From contig OZ024740.1 of the NCBI GenBank assembly GCA_964016885.1, positions 356,066,001-356,130,000 on the forward strand: 64,000 nt of DNA, written 5' to 3'. This document shows positions 15,983 to 48,841 of the stretch, piece after piece (positions within the stretch are counted from its first letter, which is position 1; each line of letters starts with the position of its first letter). This DNA comes from Eledone cirrhosa (taxonomy: Eukaryota). Under the pieces are notes generated by a model that saw only the letters and a program-made list of their open reading frames with translations, was not told the origin of the DNA and searched no databases. Both the position numbers and the translations under genes were made by a program.

Positions 15983-16114
15983 GTATATTTGTGTATGTGT
16001 AGGGTATTTATATATGTATATATGAGTGTGTGTTTGAATTCATGTGAGTAAAAGTATCCAAATGCAAGTTCATATGCATGCCCATGAAATTATAAAGTTT
16101 GTTTATATATATGA

Positions 16115-16177
<63 letters not shown>

Positions 16178-16444
16178 TATATACATATACAACTTTTGCT
16201 AACATGGAAATAGGACGTTAAATGATGATGATGAGAATGTTGATGCTGATGTTAATAATGATGTTGATGATGATATGTATATATGTCTGAGCACGTGTAA
16301 GTATGTATGTGTGTGTTTGTATGGGTGAAAATATCTAATACTGCAAGGAAGAATATTGTTTCACTTGTTGCCTAGGTGACAGCAGAGGTCAGAATGAGAT
16401 TGCAGCTGTGCTTCCTTGTGAAGATTCTGTATTTTATATAACTA

Positions 16445-16487
16445 CACTCACACACACACACACACACATAGCACACATATACATACA

Positions 16488-16522
<35 letters not shown>

Positions 16523-16539
16523 GCACACATACACATACA

Positions 16540-16575
<36 letters not shown>

Positions 16576-17860
16576 TACACATACACTTACACACACACAC
16601 GCACACACACACACACACACATACACACACACATACACTCACATACACACACACACATACACACACATACACTTACATACACACACACTCACACACACAC
16701 ACATACACTCACACACACACACACTCACACACACACACTCACACACACACACGCATACACACACATACACTTACACACACACACTGACACTGACACACAC
16801 ACACACCCACCCACACACATACACACACAGACATACACTTACACACACACTCACACACACACACACACACACTTACACACGCACACACACACTTACACAC
16901 ACACACACATACACTTACACACACACACTCTCACACACCCACCCACACACCCACACACTCACACACATACATACACACACACACATACACATACACACAC
17001 ATACACTCACACACACACATACACACACATACACACACATACACTTACACACACACACACACTCACACACATACACACACATACACACACACACACACTG
17101 ACACACACACATACACACACACTCACACACACATACACACACCTACACTTACACACACACACACTCACACACACATACACTCACACACACACACACACAC
17201 ACACATACACACACATACACTCACACACACACATACACTCACACACACACACATACACTTACACACACACACACTCACACGCACACATACACACACATAC
17301 ACTCACACACACACACACACATACACACACACACATACGCACACACACGCTCACCCACACACACATACACACACACGCACTCACACACACACATACACAC
17401 ACATACACTCACACACTCACACAGACTCACACTCACACATACATACACATGCACTCACACACACTCACACACACACACTCACTCACACACTTACACACAC
17501 ACACACACTCATACACACACACACTCACATACGCACACACACACACTCACACACTCACACACTTACACACACACACACACACTCACACACACTCACACAC
17601 TTACACACTTACATACATGCACACAAACATACATACGCACGTACACGTTCACACACATAAACACACACGCACACACACACACTCACACACTTGCACACTT
17701 ACACACATGGACACAAACATACATACGCACGTACACGTTCACAGACATAAACACACACACACACACTCACACACTTACACACTCACAGACACACTTACAC
17801 ACATGCACACAAACATACATACGCACGTACACGTTCACACACACACACATACGCACATAC
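16445..17860. repeat. ~1.4-kb degenerate (CA)n microsatellite
   Basis: Continuous CA/CACT/CATA repeats. Confidence 0.95.
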
Positions 17861-17982
17861 ATATATATATATTATATAACTATACACACATAAATACATT
17901 AGTACATATATAACTATACACATACATATAAATACATTAGTATATATATATTTTCTAAAACTATTTACACTCACTCACACAT

Positions 17983-18250
17983 ATATACATACATATATTT
18001 TATATACCTACATACATAGACATATATACACTAGTACATATATTTTATAGAACTACATGCATACATATATTTTATATACCTACATACATACATATATTTT
18101 ATATACCTACATACATACATATATTTTATATACCTACATACATACATATATTTTATATACCTACATACATACATATATTTTATATACCTACATACATACA
18201 TATATTTTATATACCTACATACATACATATATTTTATATGCCTACATACA
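17983..18250. repeat. 27-bp minisatellite (atatattttatatacctacatacatac)
   Basis: About 7 or more tandem units; 9-aa periodicity in the ORF track. Confidence 0.9.
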
Positions 18251-18570: not shown

Positions 18571-21500
18571 GTGTAGTGGTAGTGGTGGTGGTGTAGTGGT
18601 AGTGTAGGCTGTAGTGGTAGTGGTGGTGGTGTAGTGGTAGTGTAGGCTGTAGTGGTAGTGGTGGTGGTGTTAGGGGTGGTGTAGGCTGTAGTGGTGGTGG
18701 TGGTGTAGTGGTAGTGTAGGCTGTAGTGGTAGTGGTGGTGGTGTAGTGGTAGTGTAGGCTGTAGTGGTAGTGGTGGTGGTGTTAGGGGTAGTGTAGGCTG
18801 TAGTGGTAGTGGTGGTGGTGTTAGGGGTGGTGTAGGCTGTAGTGGTGGTGGTGGTGTAGTGGTAGTGTAGGCTGTAGTGGTAGTGGTGGTGGTGTAGTGG
18901 TAGTGTAGGCTGTAGTGGTAGTGGTGGTGGTGTTAGGGGTGGTGTAGGCTGTAGTGGTAGTGGTGTTAGGGGTGGTGTAGGCTGTAGTGGTGGTGGTGGT
19001 GTAGTGGTAGTGTAGGCTGTTTAGTGGTATTGGTGGTGGTGTTAGGGGTGGTGTAGGCTGTAGTGGTAGTGGTGGTGGTGTTAGGGGTGGTGTAGGCTGT
19101 AGTGGTAGTGGTGGTGGTGTTAGGGGTGGTGTAGGCTGTAGTGATAGTGGTGGTGGTGTAGTGGTAGTGTAGGCTGTAGTGGTAGTGGTGTTAGGGGTGG
19201 TGTAGGCTGTAGTGGTAGTGTAGGCTGTAGTGGTAGTGGTGGTGGTGTTAGGGGTGGTGTAGGCTGTAGTGGTAGTAGTGGTGGTGTTAGGGGTGGTGTA
19301 GGCTGTAGTGGTCATGGTGGTGGTGTTAGGGGTGGTGTAGGTGGTGTAGTGGTAGTGGTGGTGGTGTTAGGGGTGGTGTAGGTAGTAGTGGTGGTGGTGT
19401 TAGGGGTGGAGTAGGCTGTAGTGGTAGTGGTGGTGTAGTGGTAGTGTTGGCTGTAGTGGTAGTGTAGGCTGTAGTGGTAGTGGTGGTGGTGTAGTGGTAG
19501 TGTAGGCTGTAGTGGTAGTGGTGGTGGTGTTAGGGGTGGTGTAGGCTGTAGTGGTGGTGGTGGTGTAGTGGTAGTGTTGGCTGTAGTGGTAGTGGTGGTG
19601 GTGTAGTGGTAGTGTAGGCTGTAGTGGTAGTGGTGGTGGTGTTAGGGGTGGTGTAGGCTGTAGTGGTAGTGGTGGTGGTGTAGTTGTAGTGTAGGCTGTA
19701 GTGGTAGTGGTGGCGGTGTTAGGGGTGGTGTAGGCTGTAGTGGTAGTGGTGGTGGTGTAGTTGTAGTGTAGGGTGTAGTGGTAGTGGTGGTGGTGTAGTT
19801 GTATTGTAGGCTGTAGTGATAGTGGTGGTGGTGTAGTGGTAGTGTAGGCTGTAGTGGTAGTGGTGGTGGTGTAGTTGTAGTGTAGGCTGTAGTGGTAGTG
19901 GTGGTGGTGTAGTTGTAGTGTAGGCTGTAGTGGTAGTGGTGGTGGTGTAGTGGTAGTGTAGGCTGTAGTGGTAGTGGTGGTGGTGTTAGGGGTGATGTAG
20001 GCTGTAGTGGTAGTGGTGGTGGTGTAGTGGTAGTGTAGGCTGTAGTGGTAGTGGTGGTGGTGTAGTTGTAGTGTAGGCTGTAGTGATAGTGGTGGTGGTG
20101 TAGTGGTAGTGTAGGCTGTAGTGGTAGTGGTGGTGGTGTAGTGGTAGTGTAGGCTGTAGTGGTGGTGGTGTTAGGGGTGGTGTAGGCTGTAGTGGTAGTA
20201 GTGGTGGTGTTAGGGGTGGTGTAGGCTGTAGTGGTCATGGTGGTGGTGTTAGGGGTGGTGTAGGTGGTGTAGTGGTAGTGTAGGTTGTAGTAGTAGTGGT
20301 GGTGGTGTTAGGGGTGGTGTAGGGAGTAGTGGTGGTGGTGTTAGGGGTGGAGTAGGCTGTAGTGGTAGTGGTGGTGGTGTAGTGGTAGTGTAGGTTGTAG
20401 TGGTAGTAGTGGTGGTGTAGTGGTAGTGTAGGCTGTAGTGGTAGTGGTGGTGGTGTTAGGGGTGGTGTAGGCTGTAGTGGTGGTGGTGGTGTAGTGGTAG
20501 TGTTGGCTGTAGTGGTAGTGGTGGTGGTGTAGTGGTAATGTAGGCTGTAGTGGTAGTGGTGGTGGTGTAGTGGTAGTGTAGGCTGTAGTGGTAGTGGTGG
20601 TGGTGTTAGGGGTGGTGTAGGCTGTAGTGGTAGTGGTGGTGGTGTTAGGGGTGGTGTAGGCTGTAGTGGTGGTGGTGGTGTAGTGGTAGTGTTGGCTGTA
20701 GTGGTAGTGGTGGTGGTGTAGTGGTAATGTAGGCTGTAGTGGTAGTGGTGGTGGTGTAGTGGTAGTGTAGGCTGTAGTGGTAGTGGTGGTGGTGTTAGGG
20801 GTGGAGTAGGCTGTAGTGGTAGTGGTGGTGGTGTAGTGGTAGTGTAGGCTGTAGTGGTAGTGGTGGTGGTGTTAGGGGTGGTGTAGGCTGTAGTGGTAGT
20901 GGTGGTGGTGTAGTTGTAGTGTAGGCTGTAGTGGTAGTGGTGGTGGTGTAGTGGTAGTGTAGGCTGTAGTGGTAGTGGTGGTGGTGTTAGGGGTGGTGTA
21001 GGCTGTAGTGGTAGTGGTGGTGGTGTAGTTGTAGTGTAGGCTGTAGTGGTAGTGGTGGTGGTGTAGTGGTAGTGTAGGCTGTAGTGGTAGTGGTGGTGGT
21101 GTAGTTGTAGTGTAGGCTGTAGTGGTAGTGGTGGTGGTGTTAGGGGTGGTGTAGGCTGTAGTGGTAGTGGTGGTGGTGTAGTTGTAGTGTAGGCTGTAGT
21201 GGTAGTGGTGGTGGTGTAGTGGTAATGTAGGCTGTAGTGGTAGTGGTGGTGGTGTTAGGGGTGGTGTAGGCTGTAGTGGTAGTGGTGGTGGTGTAGTTGT
21301 AGTGTAGGCTGTAGTGGTAGTGGTGGTGGTGTAGTTGTAGTGTAGGCTGTAGTGGTAGTGGTGGTGGTGTTAGGGGTGGTGTAGGCTGTAGTGGTAGTAG
21401 TGGTGGTGTTAGGGGTGGTGTAGGCTGTAGTGGTAGTGGTGGTGGTGTAGTGGTAGTGTAGGCTGTAGTGGTAGTGGTGGTGGTGTTAGGGGTGGTGTAG

Positions 21501-23640
21501 GCTGTAGTGGTATTGGTGGTGGTGTTAGGGGTGGAGTAGGCTGTAGTGGTAGCAGTGGTGGTGTAGTGGTAGTGTAGGCAGTAGTGGTAGTGGTGGTGGT
21601 GTTAGGGGTGGTGTAGGCTGTAGTGGTAGTGGTGGTGGTGTAGTGGTAGTGTAGGCTGTAGTGGTAGTGGTGGTGGTGTTAGGGGTGGTGTAGGCTGTAG
21701 TGGTAGTGGTGGTGGTGTAGTGGTAGTGTAGGCTGTAGTGGTAGTGTAGGCTGTAGTGGTAGTGGTGGTGGTGTTAGGGGTGGTGTAGGCTGTAGTGGTA
21801 GTGGTGGAGGTGCTAGGGGTGGTGTAGGCTGTAGTGTTAGTGGTGGTGGTGTAGTGGTAGTGTAGGCTGAAGTGGTAGTGGTGGTGGTGTTAGGGGTGGT
21901 GTAGGCTGTAGTGGTAGTGGTGGTGGTGTTAGGGGTGGTGTAGGCTGTAGTGTTAGTGGTGGTGGTGTAGTGGTAGTGTAGGCTGAAGTGGTAGTGGTGG
22001 TGGTGTTAGGGGTGGTGTAGGCTGTAGTGGTATTGGTGGTGGTGTAGTGGTAGTGTAGGCTGTAGTGGTAGTGGTGGTGGTGTAGTGGTAGTGTAGGCTG
22101 TAGTGGTAGTGGTGGTGATGTTAGAGGTGGTGTAGGCTGTAGTGGTAGTGGTGGTGGTGTAGTTGTAGTGTAGGCTGTAGTGGTAGTGGTGGTGGTGTTA
22201 GGGGTGGTGTAGGCTGTAGTGGTATTGGTGGTGGTGTAGTGGTAGTGTAGGCTGTAGTGGTAGTGGTTGTGATGTTAGAGGTGGTGTAGGCTGTAGTGGT
22301 AGTGGTGGTGGTGTAGTGGTAGTGTAGGCTGTAGTGGTAGTGGTGGTGGTGTTAGGGGTGGTGTAGGCTGTAGTGGTAGTGGTGGTGGTGTTAGGGGTGG
22401 TGTAGGCTGTAGTGGTAGTGGTGGTGGTGTAGTGGTAGTGTAGGCTGTAGTGGTAGTGGTTGTGATGTTAGAGGTGGTGTAGGCTGTAGTGGTATTGGTG
22501 GTGGTGTAGTGGTAGTGTAGGCTGTAGTGGTAGTGGTGGTGGTGTTAGGGGTGGTGTAGGCTGTAGTGGTAGTGGTGGTGGTGTAGTGGTAGTGTAGGCT
22601 GTAGTGGTAGGGGTGATGGTGTTAGGGGTGGTGTAGGCTGTAGTGGTAGTGGTGTTGGTGTTAGGGGTGGTGTAGGCTGTAGTGGTTGTGGTGGTGGTGT
22701 TAGGGGTGGTGTAGGCTGTAGTGGTAGTGGTTGTGATGTTAGAGGTGGTGTAGGCTGTAGTGGTATTGGTGGTGGTGTAGTGGTAGTGTAGGCTGTAGTG
22801 GTAGTGGTGGTGGTGTTAGGGGTGGTGTAGGCTGTAGTGGTAGTGGTGGTGGTGTAGTGGTAGTGTAGGCTGTAGTGGTAGGGGTGATGGTGTTAGGGGT
22901 GGTGTAGGCTGTAGTGGTTGTGGTGGTGGTGTTAGGGGTGGTGTAGGCTGTAGTGGTAGTGGTGGTGGTGTTAGGGGTGGTGTAGGCTGTAGTGGTAGTG
23001 GTTGTGATGTTAGAGGTGGTGTAGGCTGTAGTGGTATTGGTGGTGGTGTAGTGGTAGTGTAGGCTGTAGTGGTAGTGGTGGTGGTGTTAGGGGTGGTGTA
23101 GGCTGTAGTGGTAGTTATGGTGGTGTTAGTGGTAGTGGTGGTGATGTTAGGGGTAGTGTAGGCTGTAGTGGTAGTGATGGTGCTGTTAGGGGTGGTGTAG
23201 GCTGTAGTGGTAGTGGTGGTGGTGTTAGGGGTAGTGTAGGCTGTAGTGGTAGTGATGGTGGTGTTAGTGGTAGTGGTGGTGATGTTAGGGGTAGTGTAGG
23301 CTGTAGTGGTAGTGATGGTGCTGTTAGGGGTGGTGTAGGCTGTAGTGGTAGTGGTGGTGGTGTTAGGGGTAGTGTAGGCTGTAGTGGTAGTGAAGGTGGT
23401 GTTAGTGGTAGTGGTGGTGATGTTAGGGGTAGTGTAGGCTGTAGTGGTAGTGATGGTGCTGTTAGGGGTGGTGTAGGCTGTAGTGGTAGTGGTGGTGCTG
23501 TTAGGGGTAGTGTAGGCTGTAGTGGTAGTGATGGTGGTGTTAGTGGTAGTGGTGGTGATGTTAGGGGTAGTGTAGGCTGTAGTGGTAGTGATGGTGGTGT
23601 TAGTGGTAGTGGTGGTGATGTTAGGGGTAGCGTAGGCTGT
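18571..23640. repeat. ~5-kb G-rich 38/39-bp minisatellite
   Basis: Units gtaggctgtagtggtagtggtggtggt followed by either gtagtggtagt (38 bp) or gttaggggtggt (39 bp). Confidence 0.95.
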
Positions 23641-25250
23641 AGTGGTAGTGGTGTTAGTGGTAGTGGTGGTGATGTTAGTGGTAATGGTGGAGATGAATTT
23701 TGTGGTGGTGATGGTAGTGATGGTGATGAATGTTGTGGTGCTGGTGGTAGTGGTAGTGATGATTGTTGTGGTGGTGGTGGTAGTGGTAGTGGTGGTGATG
23801 AATGTTGTGGTGGTGGTGGTAGTGGTAGTGGTGGTGATGATTGTTGTGGGGTGGTGGTAGTGGTAGTGGTGGTGATGATTGTTGTGGTGGTGGTGTTAGT
23901 GGTAGTGGTGGTGATGATTGTTGTGGGGGTGGTAGTGGTCGTGATGATTGTTGTGGGGGTGGTAGTGGTGGTGATGGTTGTTGTGGGGGTGGTAGTGGTG
24001 GTGATGGTTGTTGTGAGGGTGGTAGTGGTGGTGATGATTGTTGTGGTGGTGGTAGTGGTGGTGATGATTGTTGTGGGGGTGGTAGTGGTCGTGATGGTTG
24101 TTGTGGGGTGGTAGTGGTGGTGATGATTGTTGTGGGGGTGGTGGTAGTGGTAGTGGTGGTGGTGTTATTGGTGGTGGTAGTGGTAGTGGTGGTGATGAAT
24201 GTTGTGGTTGGGGGTGTTAGTGGTAGTGGTGGTAGTGGTAGTGGTGGTGGTGTTAGTGGTAGTGGTGGTGATGATTGTTGTGGTGGTGGTAGTGGTAGTG
24301 GTGGTGATGAATGTTGTGGTTGGGGGTGTTAGTGGTAGTGGTGGTGGTGATTGTTGTGGGGGTGGTGGTAGTGGTAGTGGTGGTGGTGTTAGTGGTGGTG
24401 GTAGTGGTAGTGGTGGTGATGAATGTTGTGGTTGGGGGTGTTAGTGGTAGTGGTGGAGGTGATTGTTGTGGGGGTGGTGGTAGTGGTGGTGATGATTGTT
24501 GTGGTGTAGGCTGAAGTGGTAGTGGTGGTGATGATTGTTGTGGTAGTGGTAGTGGTGGTGATGTTTGTTGTGGTAGTGGTAGTGGTGGTGATGTTTGTTG
24601 TGGTAGTGGTAGTGGTGGTGATGTTTGTTGTGGTAGTGATGACTGTTGTTGTGGTAGTGGTAGTGGTGGTGATGAATGTTGTGGTAGGTGGTGTTAGTAG
24701 TAGTGGTGGTGATGGTAGTGGTAGTGGTGTTGATGATAGTTGTGGTGGTGGTGGTAGTGGTAGTGATGATTGTTGTGGTGGTGGTTGAGGATGTAATGAT
24801 GGTGTTGGTGGTGATGGTAGTGGCGTTGATGGTAGTGGTGGTTGTGGTAATGGTGGTGGTTGTAATGATGCTGTTAGTGTTGGTGGTAGTGTTGTTGATG
24901 GTAGTAGTATCAATTGTAGTGGTTTCGGTGGTAGTGGTGGTGTTGGTATCAGTGGTTGTGATGTTGGTGGTGATGGTAATGTTGGTAGGAGTACTGTTAG
25001 TGTTAGTGGTTTTTGTAGTGGTGGTGTTGGTGGTAGAGATGTTGGTGGTAGTGGTGGTGGTGGTAATGGTGATGGTGGGAATGGTGATGGTGCGAATGGT
25101 GTTAGTGGTAAGGGTGTTAGTGGTAGTGGTGTTGGTCATGGTGTTGTTGGTTGTAGTGGTATTGGTGGTGGTGATGTTGGTAGTAGTGTTGTTAGTGGTA
25201 GTGGTGTTGCTGGTAGTGGTGTTAATGGTAGTGGTGATGGTGGCTGGGAT
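23641..25250. repeat. Degenerate (GGT/GTT/GAT)n trinucleotide repeat region
   Basis: Poly-Val/Gly/Thr translations; continuous with the minisatellite. Confidence 0.9.
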
Positions 25251-42468: not shown

Positions 42469-43293
42469 TTAGCCGCTAAAGGGTTCTCTCTAAAAATGAA
42501 ATGCAGGCTGTATGATGCCTGCATACGAACAGCAATGTTACATGGCAGTGAGACCTGGGCATTGTGTGCAGAGGATATACGCAGACTGGAGAGGAACGAA
42601 GCTTGCATGCTCCACTGGATGTGTAATAGTAATATACGTGAACGGCAAAGCATAAACAAACTAAGGGAAAAATTAGAAATAAGAGGGATCAGATGTTGTT
42701 TACTCGAGAGAAGACTACATTCGTATGGTCACGTGATGCGCATGAAAGACGACAGCTGTATAAAATATTGCAGGGCAATAAAAATAGACGGTAGCCACGG
42801 AGTAGGCAGACCCAGAAAAACCTGGGACGACTTGATAAATTCCGACCTCACACACTTACACCTCTCCAAGACAATGTCACTGGACCGAGATCTTTGGTGC
42901 TACACAGTAATACAGAAGACCCGCCTTACCTAAGTACAAAGTGAAACCTACTACAGTCAGTAGGCACCTCTAACAAAAATACACCCCGTCCCACTACCCC
43001 CACCCCTTTCAATGTAAAGTTATATTGGTACCACAACATCCAGTCCGAAACAAATGAGGTCGTGTACGTGTCACGACAAAAAACACACAGTCCACACTGT
43101 AATGTGGCCGTGTAGGTAATACGGTAAAACCTCCCAGTCCACACTGTAAACGTGGTTGGTGTTAGGAAGGGCATCCAGCCGTAGAAAACCCGCCAGACAG
43201 TCCTATGCGAGCAAGACAACCACTCTTGCTTCAAGTGGGAAAACTCCCATCCAAACTCATGCAAGCGTGGAAGATGGACGTTAAACGATGATG

Positions 43294-43295
<2 letters not shown>
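42469..43295 (+). mobile_element. RTE LINE 3' fragment (subfamily 2) inside (TA)n
   Basis: [30 protein letters not shown]...GRPRKTWDD, 3' UTR and (GAT)n tail. Confidence 0.92.
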
Positions 43296-43369
<74 letters not shown>

Positions 43370-44167
43370 GTATATATACATATATATTTATGTATATTTC
43401 AGAAACGTAATATATATATATATATATTTTTTTTTTTCAGAATATATATGTATATATATATATTTATTTAAAGGTTAAACAAGGTTCAATGAATAAATCA
43501 AAGAATGAGTTTTACAATAGATTGAAAGCACTCAACAGTATGGTTTTCCGGAATTATTAATATTAATTCAAAATATTAACAAAATAGATATTCTTGTGAT
43601 TAAGTATATTTTATTATACATATTTCAGAGGTACCGAGTTATATATACACGCGAAAAGTCAGGAAAAAACACTAAATAAACGGGTTTTAATTTTTGACGT
43701 CTCTTATCAACTGTGTACCTAAAACGATATAACAGATTATAAAACTTTAATAATGTTTTATTTTCTATTCATTTATGATAGAATTAATGTTAGACTAAAG
43801 GGTCCTGTTTAGGTATATAAACATATTATTTGTTAACATGTTCTCTTGATGAATATGCACATCTTTGGATTATTTTAGATATATATAATTTAGATTGGGA
43901 TCCTTATATATTTGTTTTTGTTTTAAATATATAATTTGGATATATAACTTATAAGATTACTGGTTATAATTAACAGTTATTACAAATCATTCATGCATTT
44001 ATATATTTTACTCATTTTGAGTATGTTTTAGGATTCAGAAAGTTAGATTTGTACATTTTTATTTTTTATATATATTTAGGTATAAATGTCACAAATGATA
44101 CTAGTCGACAAATATTGGTCTTTCTTTCCACTGTACTGGATGTAAAACTACAATTATAACATTACTA

Positions 44168-44334
44168 ATAATTGTTTCTACTTTTGGCACAAGTGCATTA
44201 CTGGTACTTTATTTTATCGACCCCGTAAGGAGGAAAGGCAAAGTCAACCTGGGCGGGATTTGAACTCAGATTGTAAAGGGACGTAACTATACTGGAAAGC
44301 ATGGCGTCGACCCTCTACTGATACTGCCAATCCA
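44168..44334 (-). mobile_element. SINE family B
   Basis: Reverse complement of the consensus; inserted in the AT-rich element. Confidence 0.85.
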
Positions 44335-45947
44335 ATAATGATTGTAATTATTTATTTATTATATGTATATTGTTTCACTAATACCTATAATACTCTCTCT
44401 ATATATTTGAACAAATCTGTTTATCTAATATAATAACATGCTCCTAGTTACTTTTATAAGTAATTTGGATACTTAAATGACTCTCTATTGTTATAATTGT
44501 TAGATATTTTCTTAATGTTCTAAATTATATAACGATTATTACTTAATTTAATTTAATTTAATTTAATTTAATTAAATTTGGATTACCTTCGGGTCATTGA
44601 AATCCTTAGCTCCTCTTTCTATCATCTTCGTGGACACTTTAGGAGTGTTGTTAGTCTACTATATAAATCTTAAAAAGCTCTCTTGTATTTTTAAACTATA
44701 TTTTTTGATATTGGGCACTTTTATGATCGCAAACAATTCATTATTTTTACTTTTTCACTTTTTATTTTGAATCTAGTCCTTATCCTTAGGATTCATGAAG
44801 TTTTGACTTGTATATTTATAGTATATATCTATTAAATGATCCTATTATAATAATTGATCTAAAACATTAATTTTAACAATTTTATCAGTAACTTATTTAT
44901 TGTATTGTATTATGTTATGTCTAATTGAGAGGTATTATCTTAATCTTTAGACAATATAATTTTTGTGTATTTTTTTGATAAACGCATATATATAATTTAA
45001 TAATTAAACTTTTTTAAGTTTAATTATAAGACCTGTTGATCCTTTAGGCATTCAAATTGTTAATCTTAAAATTCTTTAAAAACTATAACTGTAATTATAT
45101 TCTAAATTATATAATGTAAACTATTTTCAATATAATATAAATAATTTAATATTATATAATAAATTTAGTAAAGTGAGGATGTAAAGACATGATGTTTTCT
45201 TTCTCATGTTTGTAAATCCTTTAAATTTGATTTCATAAAATTTGATTTCATAAATTAAATATGATAGTATACTTTAATATTAATACATATATTTAGTAAC
45301 TTTTATAACCTAAAATATTATTCATTACTCTGAACTAACTTAAATTAAATGATTTGAATGTTAACGGTCAACCATATATGTTTGGATATATATTGTATAT
45401 ATAGATAATTATCTAAAGACCTATTATTAACCTTCATATGAATACACCCAATTATATTTAAAATTTTAAATTTCGATTGATGAATACCTTTAGATAATTC
45501 AATAATTCAATGAATTGAGTTTTTTCTTTTTCCTAAAGCTAAGCCCAAATGTTGTTCTATATAGAAATATACAATTAATATCTCCCTATATATTACACTA
45601 TAAAAATTATTCCTCTTTATCTCTCTCTCTGTAATCAACTCTCTTTTGCTTTCTATGCTCTTACTAGCTATATTATCCCATCATCTGTTTTTTTCTCTAT
45701 GCCTTTCTTTTCTTTTCTTTCCTCTTTCTTCAGTAATTTAAATTATTTGAATCTCTTAACAGTTATATTGCTGCTATATATTCTTTAAGCTTTCTCACAC
45801 GCATCCTCTCTATTATATGTATTATATGTAGGTTTTTTTTCATGTTTCAATATTAAGGTATATAATTATTGAGTTTTGTCATATATTACTCACTACCATG
45901 ACTGAATTTTAACCATCTACTATGTCAGGGTATGTCATGCATCATCT

Positions 45948-46014
45948 TATTTTATCTGATGAGGACGTACTGTTGAAGTTAACTCAGTACCTCTGAAATA
46001 TGTATAATAAAATA
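45948..46014 (+). ncRNA. Type-I hammerhead ribozyme motif
   Basis: tattttat-CTGATGA-ggacgtactg(...)cagtacctct-GAAA-tatgta-TA-ataaaata; perfect 8-bp stem I. Confidence 0.75.
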
Positions 46015-46067
46015 TACTTGATCACAAGAATATCTATTTTGTTAATATTTTGAATTAATATATATAT

Positions 46068-46097
<30 letters not shown>

Positions 46098-46098
<1 letters not shown>

Positions 46099-46874: not shown

Positions 46875-48841
46875 AGAATGGGGATGTATAAGTGTTATTA
46901 AGTCGCTCCCTCCTCTCTTTCTCTTTATATATATATATACATACACAAATTCCCACTGTCACATACTTATTTCTATCAGCCCATCATTTCCTGGTACGTA
47001 AACAAAGCTAGCACAATAGTGTTATTAAGTTAGCAGGATATATATATATATCCTATCATATTAACACTTAAATGATGTAATAGAATCTACAGCAATTATA
47101 ATTCTTCATCAGTATAATTATGGTATGCATGAAAGGACTCTTCAGCCTGGAGGATCATGTGACAACATCTCTAGTGTTGGTAGCATGATAAATCATATCC
47201 AGTCCACTCTGTAAAGTGGTAGTGAAAGTGCCACAAAAAATAAACCTAGTACATCCAGTAAGGTCGTTGGTGTTAGGAAGGGCATGGAATTTATGAGCAA
47301 GATAAGGTCCTTCAGACTCATCCGGTTTCAAAGAGTAACATCCTGTCAAATCCAGGGAAATGGACATAAGAATGATGGGGAACAGATTTTCTATTGAACA
47401 GTGAATCTTTATCATAATAAAAAAGTATGAGTTAGTGACAGGTAGGGCATCTCACCGTAGAAATACACTTGGTTAAATTGTAAGTGGTACAAGTGTCAGG
47501 GATTAGGAGACTCATTTGACCAGCAGGATTTACTTTACCTTTCGTCCTTCAGTGGTGGATAAAATATCAGTTAAATATTGGGTGAATGTAATCAATTCGG
47601 ACCCACCTCCTACAATAAATTTGTGTCCTTGTGCTTCAGTTAAACATCATCACTATTAATGTCTATTTTCCATGGTTGGGTGGCTTCGTTTGTTTGTATG
47701 GTCCTTTTTTGGCTTTGTTTCTACAGTTAGAAGCCCTTCTTATTGCCAATCACTTTACAGTGTGTACTGAGTGTAGTTTATCATGACTCCAGCACTACAA
47801 CCTTACAGGGTGGACTAGGTTATTTTTGTCTTGGCACTAGCACTATCACCTTACAGAGCAAATTGAGTGCCTTTTGTCATGGCACCAGCACAACCAACTT
47901 ACGGGGTGAGTAAAATAAGTTACTAACACACGGGGTGAGTAAAAATTATAACTGCTAAGTTACTAACATTTTCATTTCTTTATTAAATTTTTCCATATTT
48001 TGTTTCAAGGAATAATAAAGTTTCAAGGATTGTTAATGTCTCAAGATTATTGGCTGAAAATCTGTGAACTTTGGAGCTTATAAGTGCAGCTTTCTGGAAG
48101 AAGTCTAGATTTTGCATTAAAAAGTACATTTTTGTTGAATTCATTGTATTATATTTTTTCTAATATTGGATAGTTGATAGACAAGATCATTTAAGCATTA
48201 GACAAAATGCTTTATGACATTCAATCTAGTCATTGGATGAGGTTAACTTTACCTTTCATCCTTTCAAGGTCGATAAAATAAAGTACCTGTCAAGTAACAA
48301 GGCCGATATAGTCAACTCTCCTCCCCTACTAAATTGCTCATATTATGCCTGAATTAAAAAACATTATATTTAATCTATTATCTTTTTTTATAGATATATT
48401 TATGACAATTTGAATATATATTTCTTATTTTAATATTTGTAATTACATTTTCACAATAAATGTGATTACATTTTTCCATATATTTAATAAAATTTTCAAC
48501 AATTCAAATTTATTAGAATACATTCAATCCAAGGTCGACTTTGCTTCAAATAGAAAAAGTTTCCTTCTCCTGTACTACACCTTCCCTCTCTTATCTTCTG
48601 TGTACAGTTTGAATCCTTTAGATGATATTCAGGCATCAAATTATGTAGAAGATAAATGTACATATGAAATGATATATGTAAATATAAGGGGATACATTTC
48701 CAGCAGTTATTCACTCTTCAGTTCCATTTCCCCCCTCCTCCCATTCTCATTCTCCTGTTCTATCTTTTAGCTGTTTTTTCTTTCAGTTTCCTTTATTTAT
48801 TTTTTTTTTGTATCTTGATATTATTCCAACACACACATATA

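What the first reader, a model, noticed from the sequence alone, without database searches (positions are those of the whole stretch)
43561..46060. 2.5-kb ultra-AT-rich unit ending in a canonical hammerhead, with an inverted copy truncated inside the ribozyme at its other end
The cleanest hammerhead in the window (45948-46014, 8-bp stem I, CUGAUGA core) sits ~45 bp before a (TA)-rich tract. The left boundary is an 81-bp inverted copy of the 3' terminus that stops inside the stem-II loop. An inverted, truncated terminal repeat at the 5' end is a known Penelope-type integration signature. The body has no readable ORF, suggesting a large non-autonomous or heavily decayed element.
Basis: partly seen in the sequence, partly recalled or inferred. 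Interest (0 to 1): 0.7.

Follow-up and report, generated by a model that had tools for sequence, protein, structure and literature searches.

The report
Truncated mirror-ended Hydra Penelope retrotransposon copy
This is a cut-short copy of an abundant Penelope-type jumping gene, holding mostly its long non-coding rear part and a predicted self-cutting RNA motif; its two ends stop at two different fixed points, as in most mirrored copies sampled, which likely shows that copying started twice on one RNA.

Summary
The hammerhead fold (45948-46014) and the 82-bp inverted copy are real, but the unit is misread. It starts at about 43459, not 43561: the inverted arm carries a further 100-nt family 'tail'. 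The body is neither decayed nor non-autonomous. It is the last seven codons plus the ~2.2-kb non-coding 3' region of an abundant ~4.4-kb Penelope-like element encoding a reverse transcriptase and a GIY-YIG nuclease with Hydra-clade motifs; a 161-bp repeat has since inserted into it. Copies end at two fixed sites 100 nt apart, joined to (TA)n (676 and 1405 exact ends). In 61 of 66 mirrored insertions one end uses each site. Tail arms often stop at the first site. Arm 5' ends pile up about 170 nt upstream, at a predicted TATA/initiator start, not at the hammerhead cut. Best model (inferred): both nicked strands prime on one uncut RNA. Hydra elements, one-sided tails and two in-vitro start sites are published; this scan noted the asymmetry and twin hairpins before on other DNA of this genome. 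Verdict: new family of a known kind, with testable mechanistic statistics. No RNA data were available.

The parts
43294..43458 (.). Left (TA)n-rich target tract, at the end of a dispersed repeat
   Evidence: Sequence; both flanks are TA-rich, so no target duplication can be read
43459..43560 (-). 100-nt family tail in the inverted arm; its outer end (about 43459-43466, blurred by TA homology) is end site 2
   Evidence: Matches tail positions 1-103 at 92%; 1405 exact site-2 ends on (TA)n against 23 copies that read on into the ORF
43530..43554 (-). First of two bulged hairpins (4-bp stem, inner hairpin, 2-nt bulge) about 6 nt downstream of end site 1; one stem base is changed in this copy
   Evidence: Lead from earlier scan notes; both hairpins found in family copies, the second just past site 2; function inferred
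43561..43641 (-). Inverted copy of the element's last 81-82 nt, stopping in the hammerhead stem II loop
   Evidence: 97.6% to 45980-46061; two private differences, both in this arm
43642..43649 (.). 8-nt TA-rich filler at the head-to-head junction, not templated by either arm
   Evidence: Junction against the family sequence
43650..43675 (+). Last seven codons and stop of the RT-endonuclease ORF (exact last codons differ among copies because of an A-run)
43676..45860 (+). Long AT-rich non-coding 3' region shared by the family (about 2.0 kb without the later insertion)
   Evidence: Multi-copy; 19-24% GC and 89-93% mean identity across most of it; no protein match
44173..44333 (+). Later 161-bp SINE-like dispersed repeat with a 6-bp target duplication (44167-44172, 44334-44339)
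   Evidence: Absent from family copies; many copies in the window; no tRNA gene called; 'SINE' is a recalled label
45861..45894 (+). Predicted core promoter: TATA-like box at 45861 (one base changed in this copy) and initiator A at 45892
   Evidence: Only TATA/initiator pair spaced 29-32 nt in 1990 nt of the family's 3' region; coincides with the pile-up of 5' ends; no RNA evidence
45948..46014 (+). Type I hammerhead motif, predicted dimer type, predicted cut after 46006
   Evidence: covariation across sister families; cleavage untested
46015..46061 (+). Element end up to end site 1, joined to (TA)n through a 4-5-nt AT homology
   Evidence: 676 exact site-1 ends, control 0
46062..46098 (.). 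Right (TA)n target tract
   Evidence: Sequence

Best explanation
The unit is one 5'-truncated, 5'-inverted insertion of an abundant Hydra-clade Penelope-like retrotransposon, and it was likely made when both cut strands of a (TA)n repeat primed reverse transcription at two fixed sites on one RNA. Shown: the ~4.4-kb family unit is tail, ORF (RT, GIY-YIG), ~2-kb non-coding region, hammerhead, end; copies end at site 1 or site 2; mirrored copies nearly always use one of each. Inferred steps: (1) in a partial tandem, Pol II starts at the initiator ~170 nt upstream of site 1 (window 45892), so hammerhead, both sites and both hairpins lie in the 5' leader and again at the 3' end; (2) the nuclease cuts (TA)n; (3) each 3' end anneals by 4-8 nt of AU homology just 5' of one hairpin; (4) the site-1 copy here ran 2.4 kb to the end of the ORF, the site-2 copy ran 183 nt and stopped in hammerhead stem II; (5) the two cDNA ends were joined head to head with 8 nt of filler. 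Starts in the 5' leader would run off at the RNA's 5' end and give the many 170-270-nt stubs. The copied RNA was likely not cut by the hammerhead. This copy cannot move on its own.
For: Family and ORF linkage. Protein: 27 relatives at 30-43%; Hydra motifs in natural copies; RT fold nearest DRT2 RT and telomerase, E 7e-9 to 1e-7; nuclease domain nearest I-TevI, Z 8.8, rmsd 2.4, 89 aligned, then T4 EndoII and UvrC GIY-YIG. Ends. Coupling: 61 mixed, 4 short-short, 1 long-long of 66 outward pairs by script; by hand 37 of 39 and 35 of 36, Fisher p 8e-18; independent choice would make these two fractions sum to 1. Tail arms stopping within 4 nt of site 1: 7 of 20 ends in the 125-nt range. Arms of one insertion share a subfamily variant in 28 of 30 pairs. 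5' ends: 32 of 54 in a 28-nt stretch at the predicted start, 2 of 115 near the hammerhead cut.
Against: No RNA data, so start site, expression and cleavage are untested. The intervals were chosen after seeing the data, and the values were read by hand from BLAST ends. Site 1 lies in an AT-rich hairpin that could stop RT by itself. Many arm pairs overlap by 70-1300 nt, and in some the tail arm is the longer (e.g. L081, L104), which on one RNA needs strand displacement or re-use. Some full-length copies carry upstream repeat beyond the predicted start (to about 1250 nt), which needs read-through, a circle or a template jump. Shared variants could also come from two RNAs of one source or from later homogenisation. 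An extra G at the predicted start (cap copying) was seen in only some ends. The N-terminal motif is RWR, not RWK. No phylogeny against named Hydra sequences was built. No fully intact copy was seen: the one 748-codon frame has a shifted start and two changed cysteines.
Confidence: 0.85

Rival explanations
1. Same element, but the inverted arm arises by fold-back self-priming (possibly on an antisense template), and the one-sided tail by nuclease resolution of the intermediate, as proposed by Arkhipova et al. 2013 and Craig et al. 2021.
For: Published proposals. Several insertions are near-perfect hairpins at the junction (L053, L010, L073) and short snap-back extensions occur near the predicted start. 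Arms share variants.
Against: Fold-back predicts equal inner end points; most pairs differ widely and many tail arms have no overlap with the other arm. The window junction has filler, not a palindrome. In vitro, a Poseidon element extends both strands and starts at two sites that match tail ends (PMC11167929).
Confidence: 0.25
2. Same element, twin-primed, but on two RNA molecules held by an asymmetric dimer (possibly paired through the palindromic hammerhead stem III), one read from each site.
For: Long overlaps between arms and cases with the longer tail arm need no displacement. Stem III is palindromic and covaries; PLE hammerheads are described as dimer-type; a dimer is predicted for the Poseidon protein.
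Against: Does not by itself explain tail arms that stop at site 1 (7 of 20) or 28 of 30 concordant variants, unless one source dominates per cell.
Confidence: 0.25
3. A large non-autonomous or decayed element (retrozyme-like).
For: No ORF in the body; this copy is non-autonomous in the plain sense; short non-coding stubs far outnumber ORF-bearing copies.
Against: The body begins in the ORF's last codons and follows the ORF in the full-length copies examined; left ends of copies vary freely, so 43650 is not a family boundary.
Confidence: 0.03
4. A DNA transposon or fold-back element with terminal inverted repeats that targets TA, or two independent short insertions around unique DNA.
For: Inverted ends and TA flanks.
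Against: Ends are unequal and of variable length; 17 of 60 short-end loci have no inverted arm; the linked ORF is an RT; the body is multi-copy.
Confidence: 0.02

Closest known systems
Hydra clade of C-terminal-endonuclease Penelope-like elements, including Hydra-1_Obim of Octopus bimaculoides (Craig et al. 2021, PMC8557442)
   Same: RT then GIY-YIG in one ORF; DKT; CxCx5C linker; CxxC and CxH around E and N; hammerhead near the 3' end; (TA)n targets; 5' truncation, partial tandems, inverted 5' copy, one-sided tail.
   Different: Unit ~4.4 kb against 'generally <3 kb' (complete Hydra families listed at 2.1-2.7 kb, Hydra-1_Obim 2507 bp); hammerhead 1.8-2.4 kb after the nuclease domain; tail 100 nt against 30-40; RWR for RWK; hammerhead sequence unlike the Hydra-1_Obim row. 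The Hydra-1_Obim sequence itself was not compared.
Poseidon_Ac of Anolis carolinensis, in vitro (Frangieh et al. 2024, PMC11167929)
   Same: Two internal RT start sites that match tail ends; both target strands cut and extended; AT-rich targets; uncut RNA is the main template.
   Different: There the sites are adjacent, inside the ORF and not homologous to the cut DNA; here they are 100 nt apart, upstream of the start codon, and each has 4-8 nt of AU homology to (TA)n. In the two of four text parts read I saw no count of which site is used at which end.
Adineta vaga Penelope families (Arkhipova et al. 2013, PMC3846280) and Drosophila virilis Penelope (Schostak et al. 2008, PMC2377424; author name recalled from its citation)
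   Same: Inverted pLTR with optional tail at one end; TATA plus TCACT initiator in the pLTR (A. vaga); promoter supplied by the upstream partial tandem; a 0.9-1.5-kb spacer before the 3' pLTR in Pen1_Av.
   Different: The Pen1_Av spacer differs between copies; here it is inherited across hundreds of candidates. The D. virilis promoter is TATA-less. Different clade.
Animal non-LTR retrozymes (bioRxiv 10.64898/2026.07.22.740005)
   Same: Type I hammerhead, kinship to PLE pLTRs, non-coding short copies.
   Different: Retrozymes are head-to-tail tandem arrays; this unit is a dispersed truncated copy of a coding element.
L1 twin priming (recalled; not read here)
   Same: Head-to-head inversion from two primers on one RNA.
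   Different: In L1 the second primer anneals at variable internal places and arms barely overlap; here both starts are fixed and arms often overlap.

Membership tests
EN+ Penelope-like element | Single ORF with telomerase-related RT | tested here: met
   YRDD in 16 of 20 loci L061-L080; model pLDDT 77, best folds DRT2 RT and telomerases. Pfam direct hit weak: RVT_1 in 1 of 28, none.
EN+ Penelope-like element | C-terminal GIY-YIG endonuclease | tested here: met
   Domain model pLDDT 88.5; top three folds are GIY-YIG nucleases, I-TevI Z 8.8; Foldseek alone was not significant, E 0.18.
EN+ Penelope-like element | Partial tandems (pLTR), 5' truncation, inverted 5' copies, one-sided tail | tested here: met
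EN+ Penelope-like element | Hammerhead motif in the pLTR | tested here: met
   (96.6% of cells paired against 87.9% shuffled; 7 of 9 stem II pairs with compensatory change; 19 sequences hand-picked from a scan that required stem I and the first stem II pair). Rfam did not detect it.
EN+ Penelope-like element | Hammerhead self-cleavage | not testable with these tools
   Needs an in-vitro assay.
Hydra clade | DKG changed to DKT | tested here: met
   KSDKT in 19 of 20 loci; 28 of 28 aligned proteins DK[TS], 0 DKG.
Hydra clade | N-terminal RWK motif | tested here: inconclusive
   Family has RWR at that place; 26 of 28 aligned proteins have RW[KRE]. A conservative variant, not an exact match.
Hydra clade | CxCx5C linker; CxxC and CxH flanking conserved E and N; no CCHH | tested here: met
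   Invariant C7 C9 C15, C107 C110 E113, N126, C135 H137 in 28 sequences; no conserved cysteine pair inside the GIY-YIG core by inspection.
Hydra clade | Insertion into (TA)n | tested here: met
Hydra clade | Generally shorter than 3 kb (a tendency in the paper, not a strict criterion) | tested here: not met
   Unit about 4.4 kb; sister families have 1.0-1.4 kb after the nuclease domain.
Hydra clade | Groups with named Hydra RTs in a phylogeny | not tested
   Named Hydra sequences were not fetched.
Non-LTR retrozyme | Non-coding head-to-tail tandem units each with a hammerhead | tested here: not met
   Dispersed copy tied to an ORF.
TIR DNA transposon / MITE | Fixed symmetric terminal inverted repeats in every copy | tested here: not met

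The most novel reading that the evidence does not exclude
Penelope-like elements insert by obligatory twin priming on one RNA: two hairpin-positioned start sites 100 nt apart are each handed to one strand of the cut (TA)n target, which fixes the one-sided tail; because the sites sit in the 5' leader of a capped, uncut transcript as well as at its 3' end, most events run off at the transcription start and seed thousands of hammerhead-bearing stubs whose 5' ends map the promoter from DNA alone.
Probability: 0.45. Interest if true: 0.72.

Novelty: new member of a known kind. Interest (0 to 1): 0.42.

Why it matters
The locus itself is one dead fragment among more than a thousand. The family matters because how Penelope-like elements, the closest mobile relatives of telomerase, make inverted ends and a one-sided tail is stated as open in PMC8557442 and PMC11167929. 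The genome supplies counts that separate models and give exact coordinates to test: two start sites, two hairpins, a predicted promoter, and no sign of hammerhead-cut templates. For annotation, it shows that Hydra elements can carry 1-2 kb of inherited non-coding sequence, so such fragments will pass as unknown AT-rich or non-autonomous repeats.

Tried and rejected
Rfam at gathering and E-value thresholds: no hammerhead. Monomer folding does not give the hammerhead. Pfam on three fragments and PDB sequence searches: nothing useful. Decayed second ORF in the body: no tblastn match to 27 relatives. RNA editing signature (lead e1-8664236): A>G 313 against T>C 340 over 21 copies, window 30 against 25, so none. 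Cap-derived extra G at the predicted start: mixed. Sequencing runs: no RNA holder listed; four contig sets of unrecorded kind from one study were laid and cannot show starts or expression. Target duplication: unreadable in (TA)n. An apparent 150-nt tail in early BLAST output was TA low complexity; the tail is ~100 nt. One search had one wrong row and was redone. Rows left out of the hand tallies: L115, L132, L134 (long spacer), L127, L157, L181, L199 (other end not seen), L179, L180 (fetch or alignment failed), L207-L210 counted as one event without inversion; L091 and L164 are one insertion present in both samples. Literature searches; 'Penelope-like' with 'twin priming' listed 3 papers, none on PLE mechanism by title and abstract start; subscription journals, Repbase and Dfam were not searchable, so the family may be catalogued there.

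Full report
Observation. The hammerhead layout is at 45948-46014 as stated: 8-bp stem I, CUGAUGA, a stem II of 3 pairs, a C.C mismatch and 6 pairs, GAAA, a short palindromic stem III, and a predicted cut after 46006. Rfam misses it and the monomer does not fold into it by minimum energy. Across 19 hand-picked sequences from this and sister families, 96.6% of cells pair against 87.9% in shuffles, 47 cells show compensatory change against 17, and 7 of 9 stem II pairs covary; the scan that found them required stem I and the first stem II pair, and the rows are related, so this is support, not a probability. Unstable palindromic stem III is described for dimer-type PLE hammerheads (PMC4209133, passages). 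The 82-bp inverted copy is real (97.6%) and ends in the stem II loop.

The boundary is wrong. The window lies at G000:C1:356066001 of a 3.0-Gb genome. The host was not identified by my calls; earlier scan notes call it octopus. The last 203 nt have 1833 candidates, of which the 40 scored were 97-100% identical. In many copies the sequence after the 46061 position continues with the reverse complement of window 43459-43560. So the inverted arm is 43459-43641 and carries a 100-nt tail that the right end lacks.

The body. The left body has 760 candidates (40 scored, 90-100%). In 10-kb stretches it follows directly on a reading frame with RT and nuclease motifs. An alignment of 20 long copies plus the window gave a 4430-nt unit: tail, start codon about 160 nt after site 1, ORF of about 750 codons, about 2 kb non-coding, hammerhead, end; mean identity is 91-96% in the ORF, 89-93% in the 3' region and 94-96% in the last 230 nt (one poorly aligned row, L032, was left in). 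The window copy starts at the ORF's last seven codons (stop 43673-43675) after 8 nt of filler, and is 91-93% identical to the family. A 161-bp dispersed repeat inserted later at 44173-44333 with a 6-bp duplication. No relative aligns to the body by tblastn. AT-richness belongs to the family's 3' region (19-24% GC), not to decay.

The protein. 27 relatives of 696-806 aa at 30-43% identity. A model of a natural 748-codon frame (pLDDT 77) matches DRT2 RT and telomerases best; the C-terminal domain (pLDDT 88.5) matches I-TevI (Z 8.8, rmsd 2.4, 89 aligned), T4 EndoII (7.2) and UvrC GIY-YIG (5.8), with Foldseek alone not significant. The motifs that PMC8557442 (sections 5, 11, 15, passages, and supplement part 2 of 59) gives for the Hydra clade are present: DKT, CxCx5C, CxxC and CxH round E and N, no CCHH, (TA)n targets; RWK appears as RWR. 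The paper lists Hydra-1_Obim (2507 bp, different hammerhead). This family is longer than any listed; sister families in the fetched loci have 1.0-1.4 kb between nuclease domain and hammerhead, this one 1.8-2.4 kb. Of the 150 best RT matches listed, one has an open frame of 750 codons, and it has a shifted start and two changed cysteines: no intact copy was seen.

The ends. Exact patterns count 676 ends at site 1 on (TA)n, 627 copies that go on into the tail, 1405 ends at site 2 on (TA)n and 23 that go on into the ORF; reversed controls 0 (pattern lengths differ, so the counts are lower bounds and not strictly comparable). I fetched 60 of the 77 site-1 hits on C1 and 63 of the first 100 listed site-2 hits. 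By script, 61 of 66 outward-facing pairs within 5 kb (window included) are one of each, 4 short-short, 1 long-long; two of the four carry a mutated tail by BLAST. By hand, the other end is site 2 in 37 of 39 site-1-anchored and site 1 in 35 of 36 site-2-anchored inversions (p 8e-18); 17 of the 60 site-1 loci have no inversion. Both sites end in 4-8 nt of AT homology to the target. Following leads from earlier scan notes I found a bulged hairpin about 6 nt downstream of each site. Arms of one insertion differ at 3.0 of 76 places against 4.0 between insertions (0 of 5000 permutations) and share a subfamily variant in 28 of 30 pairs (one insertion is counted twice).

The inner break points. Of 115 arm 5' ends read by hand from BLAST output, 32 of the 54 lying 60-250 nt upstream of site 1 fall in one 28-nt stretch; 2 of 115 fall near the hammerhead cut; 7 of 20 tail arms ending within the 125 nt round site 1 stop within 4 nt of it (intervals chosen after inspection). 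The 28-nt stretch holds the only TATA/initiator pair spaced 29-32 nt in 1990 nt of the 3' region, where 29 TATA-like and 23 initiator-like words occur (motif consensuses recalled): window 45861 and 45892. A TATA with a TCACT initiator in the pLTR is described for A. vaga (PMC3846280, passages), and promoter supply by the upstream partial tandem for D. virilis (PMC2377424, passages). In four contig sets of unrecorded kind from one study, depth over the terminal few hundred bases was tens of times that of the body, in line with many stubs; no RNA holder was listed.

Mechanism. Shown: anatomy, two end sites, their coupling, break-point peaks. Inferred: transcription from 45892-equivalent in a partial tandem; cutting of (TA)n; each strand primes at one site of the same, uncut RNA; the site-2 copy stops at site 1 or displaces the first copy; ends join head to head. 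PMC11167929 (text parts 1-2 of 4) shows for a Poseidon element two internal starts, extension of both strands and an uncut template, but without homology to the target. Against: long arm overlaps, cases with the longer tail arm, upstream repeats longer than the predicted transcript, an AT hairpin at site 1 that could stall RT, and no RNA data. I put identity at about 0.95 and, given that, one-RNA twin priming at about 0.5, two RNAs 0.25, fold-back with resolution 0.25.

Novelty. Clade, inverted arm, one-sided tail, pLTR promoter, long spacer and two start sites each have print precedents; this scan noted the asymmetry and twin hairpins before on other DNA of this genome. Added here: the identity of this unit, a 4.4-kb Hydra family with an inherited 2-kb 3' region, the counts of end coupling, the stop at site 1, and the promoter read from break points. 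Searches showed no paper that counts end coupling, but only listings were seen for most; PMC13282606 (passages) does not mention Hydra or hammerheads; the retrozyme preprint was read in part 1 of 5, and its supplements are closed. Unread supplement parts of PMC8557442 may bear on how close the family is to Hydra-1_Obim.

Noticed in passing
L195 (G000:C1:157159800-157166800), between the two arms: Eight tandem ~92-nt repeats of the stretch 87-167 nt upstream of site 1, which holds the 5' half of the hammerhead; looks like repeated RT slippage and a possible start of a retrozyme-like array.
   Followed up: no
L013, L018, L035, L067, L077, L127, L200, L207 and others: Several sister families share hammerhead stems I and III but differ in stem II, all keeping a 3-pair stem, a C.pyrimidine mismatch and a longer helix; at least four unrelated type I hammerhead families also occur.
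   Followed up: partly
L135, L138, L149, L157, L163: Short snap-back extensions and small repeats at 5' ends near the predicted transcription start.
   Followed up: partly
L105, L109, L175: Minor end sites inside the tail at other AT words (about 69, a deleted tail, and 79 in an older relative), also joined to (TA)n.
   Followed up: no
L078:4108-6354 (-), residues about 451-494 and 557-600: Asparagine-rich, low-confidence inserts between RT and nuclease that vary among copies, like the N-rich inserts described in PMC3846280.
   Followed up: no
window 45421-45597: About 180 nt of the 3' region present in some copies and absent in others: a subfamily marker.
   Followed up: partly
L207-L210 (C1:217.3-217.6 Mb) and L023: Four near-identical loci about 100 kb apart (segmental duplication); L023 has two short ends with the same flank, a duplication rather than one insertion.
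   Followed up: no
window 19000-25000 and 16000-18000: Long tracts with extreme GC skew (+0.9 and -0.9), probably simple satellites.
   Followed up: no
window 6038, 15661, 25265 (+); 30284, 33731, 53413 (-): Other CUGANGA...GAAA candidates, not evaluated.
   Followed up: no
window 43079-43293, 47191-47463: Dispersed repeat ending in (GAT)n(AT)n whose tract is the left target of this insertion.
   Followed up: no
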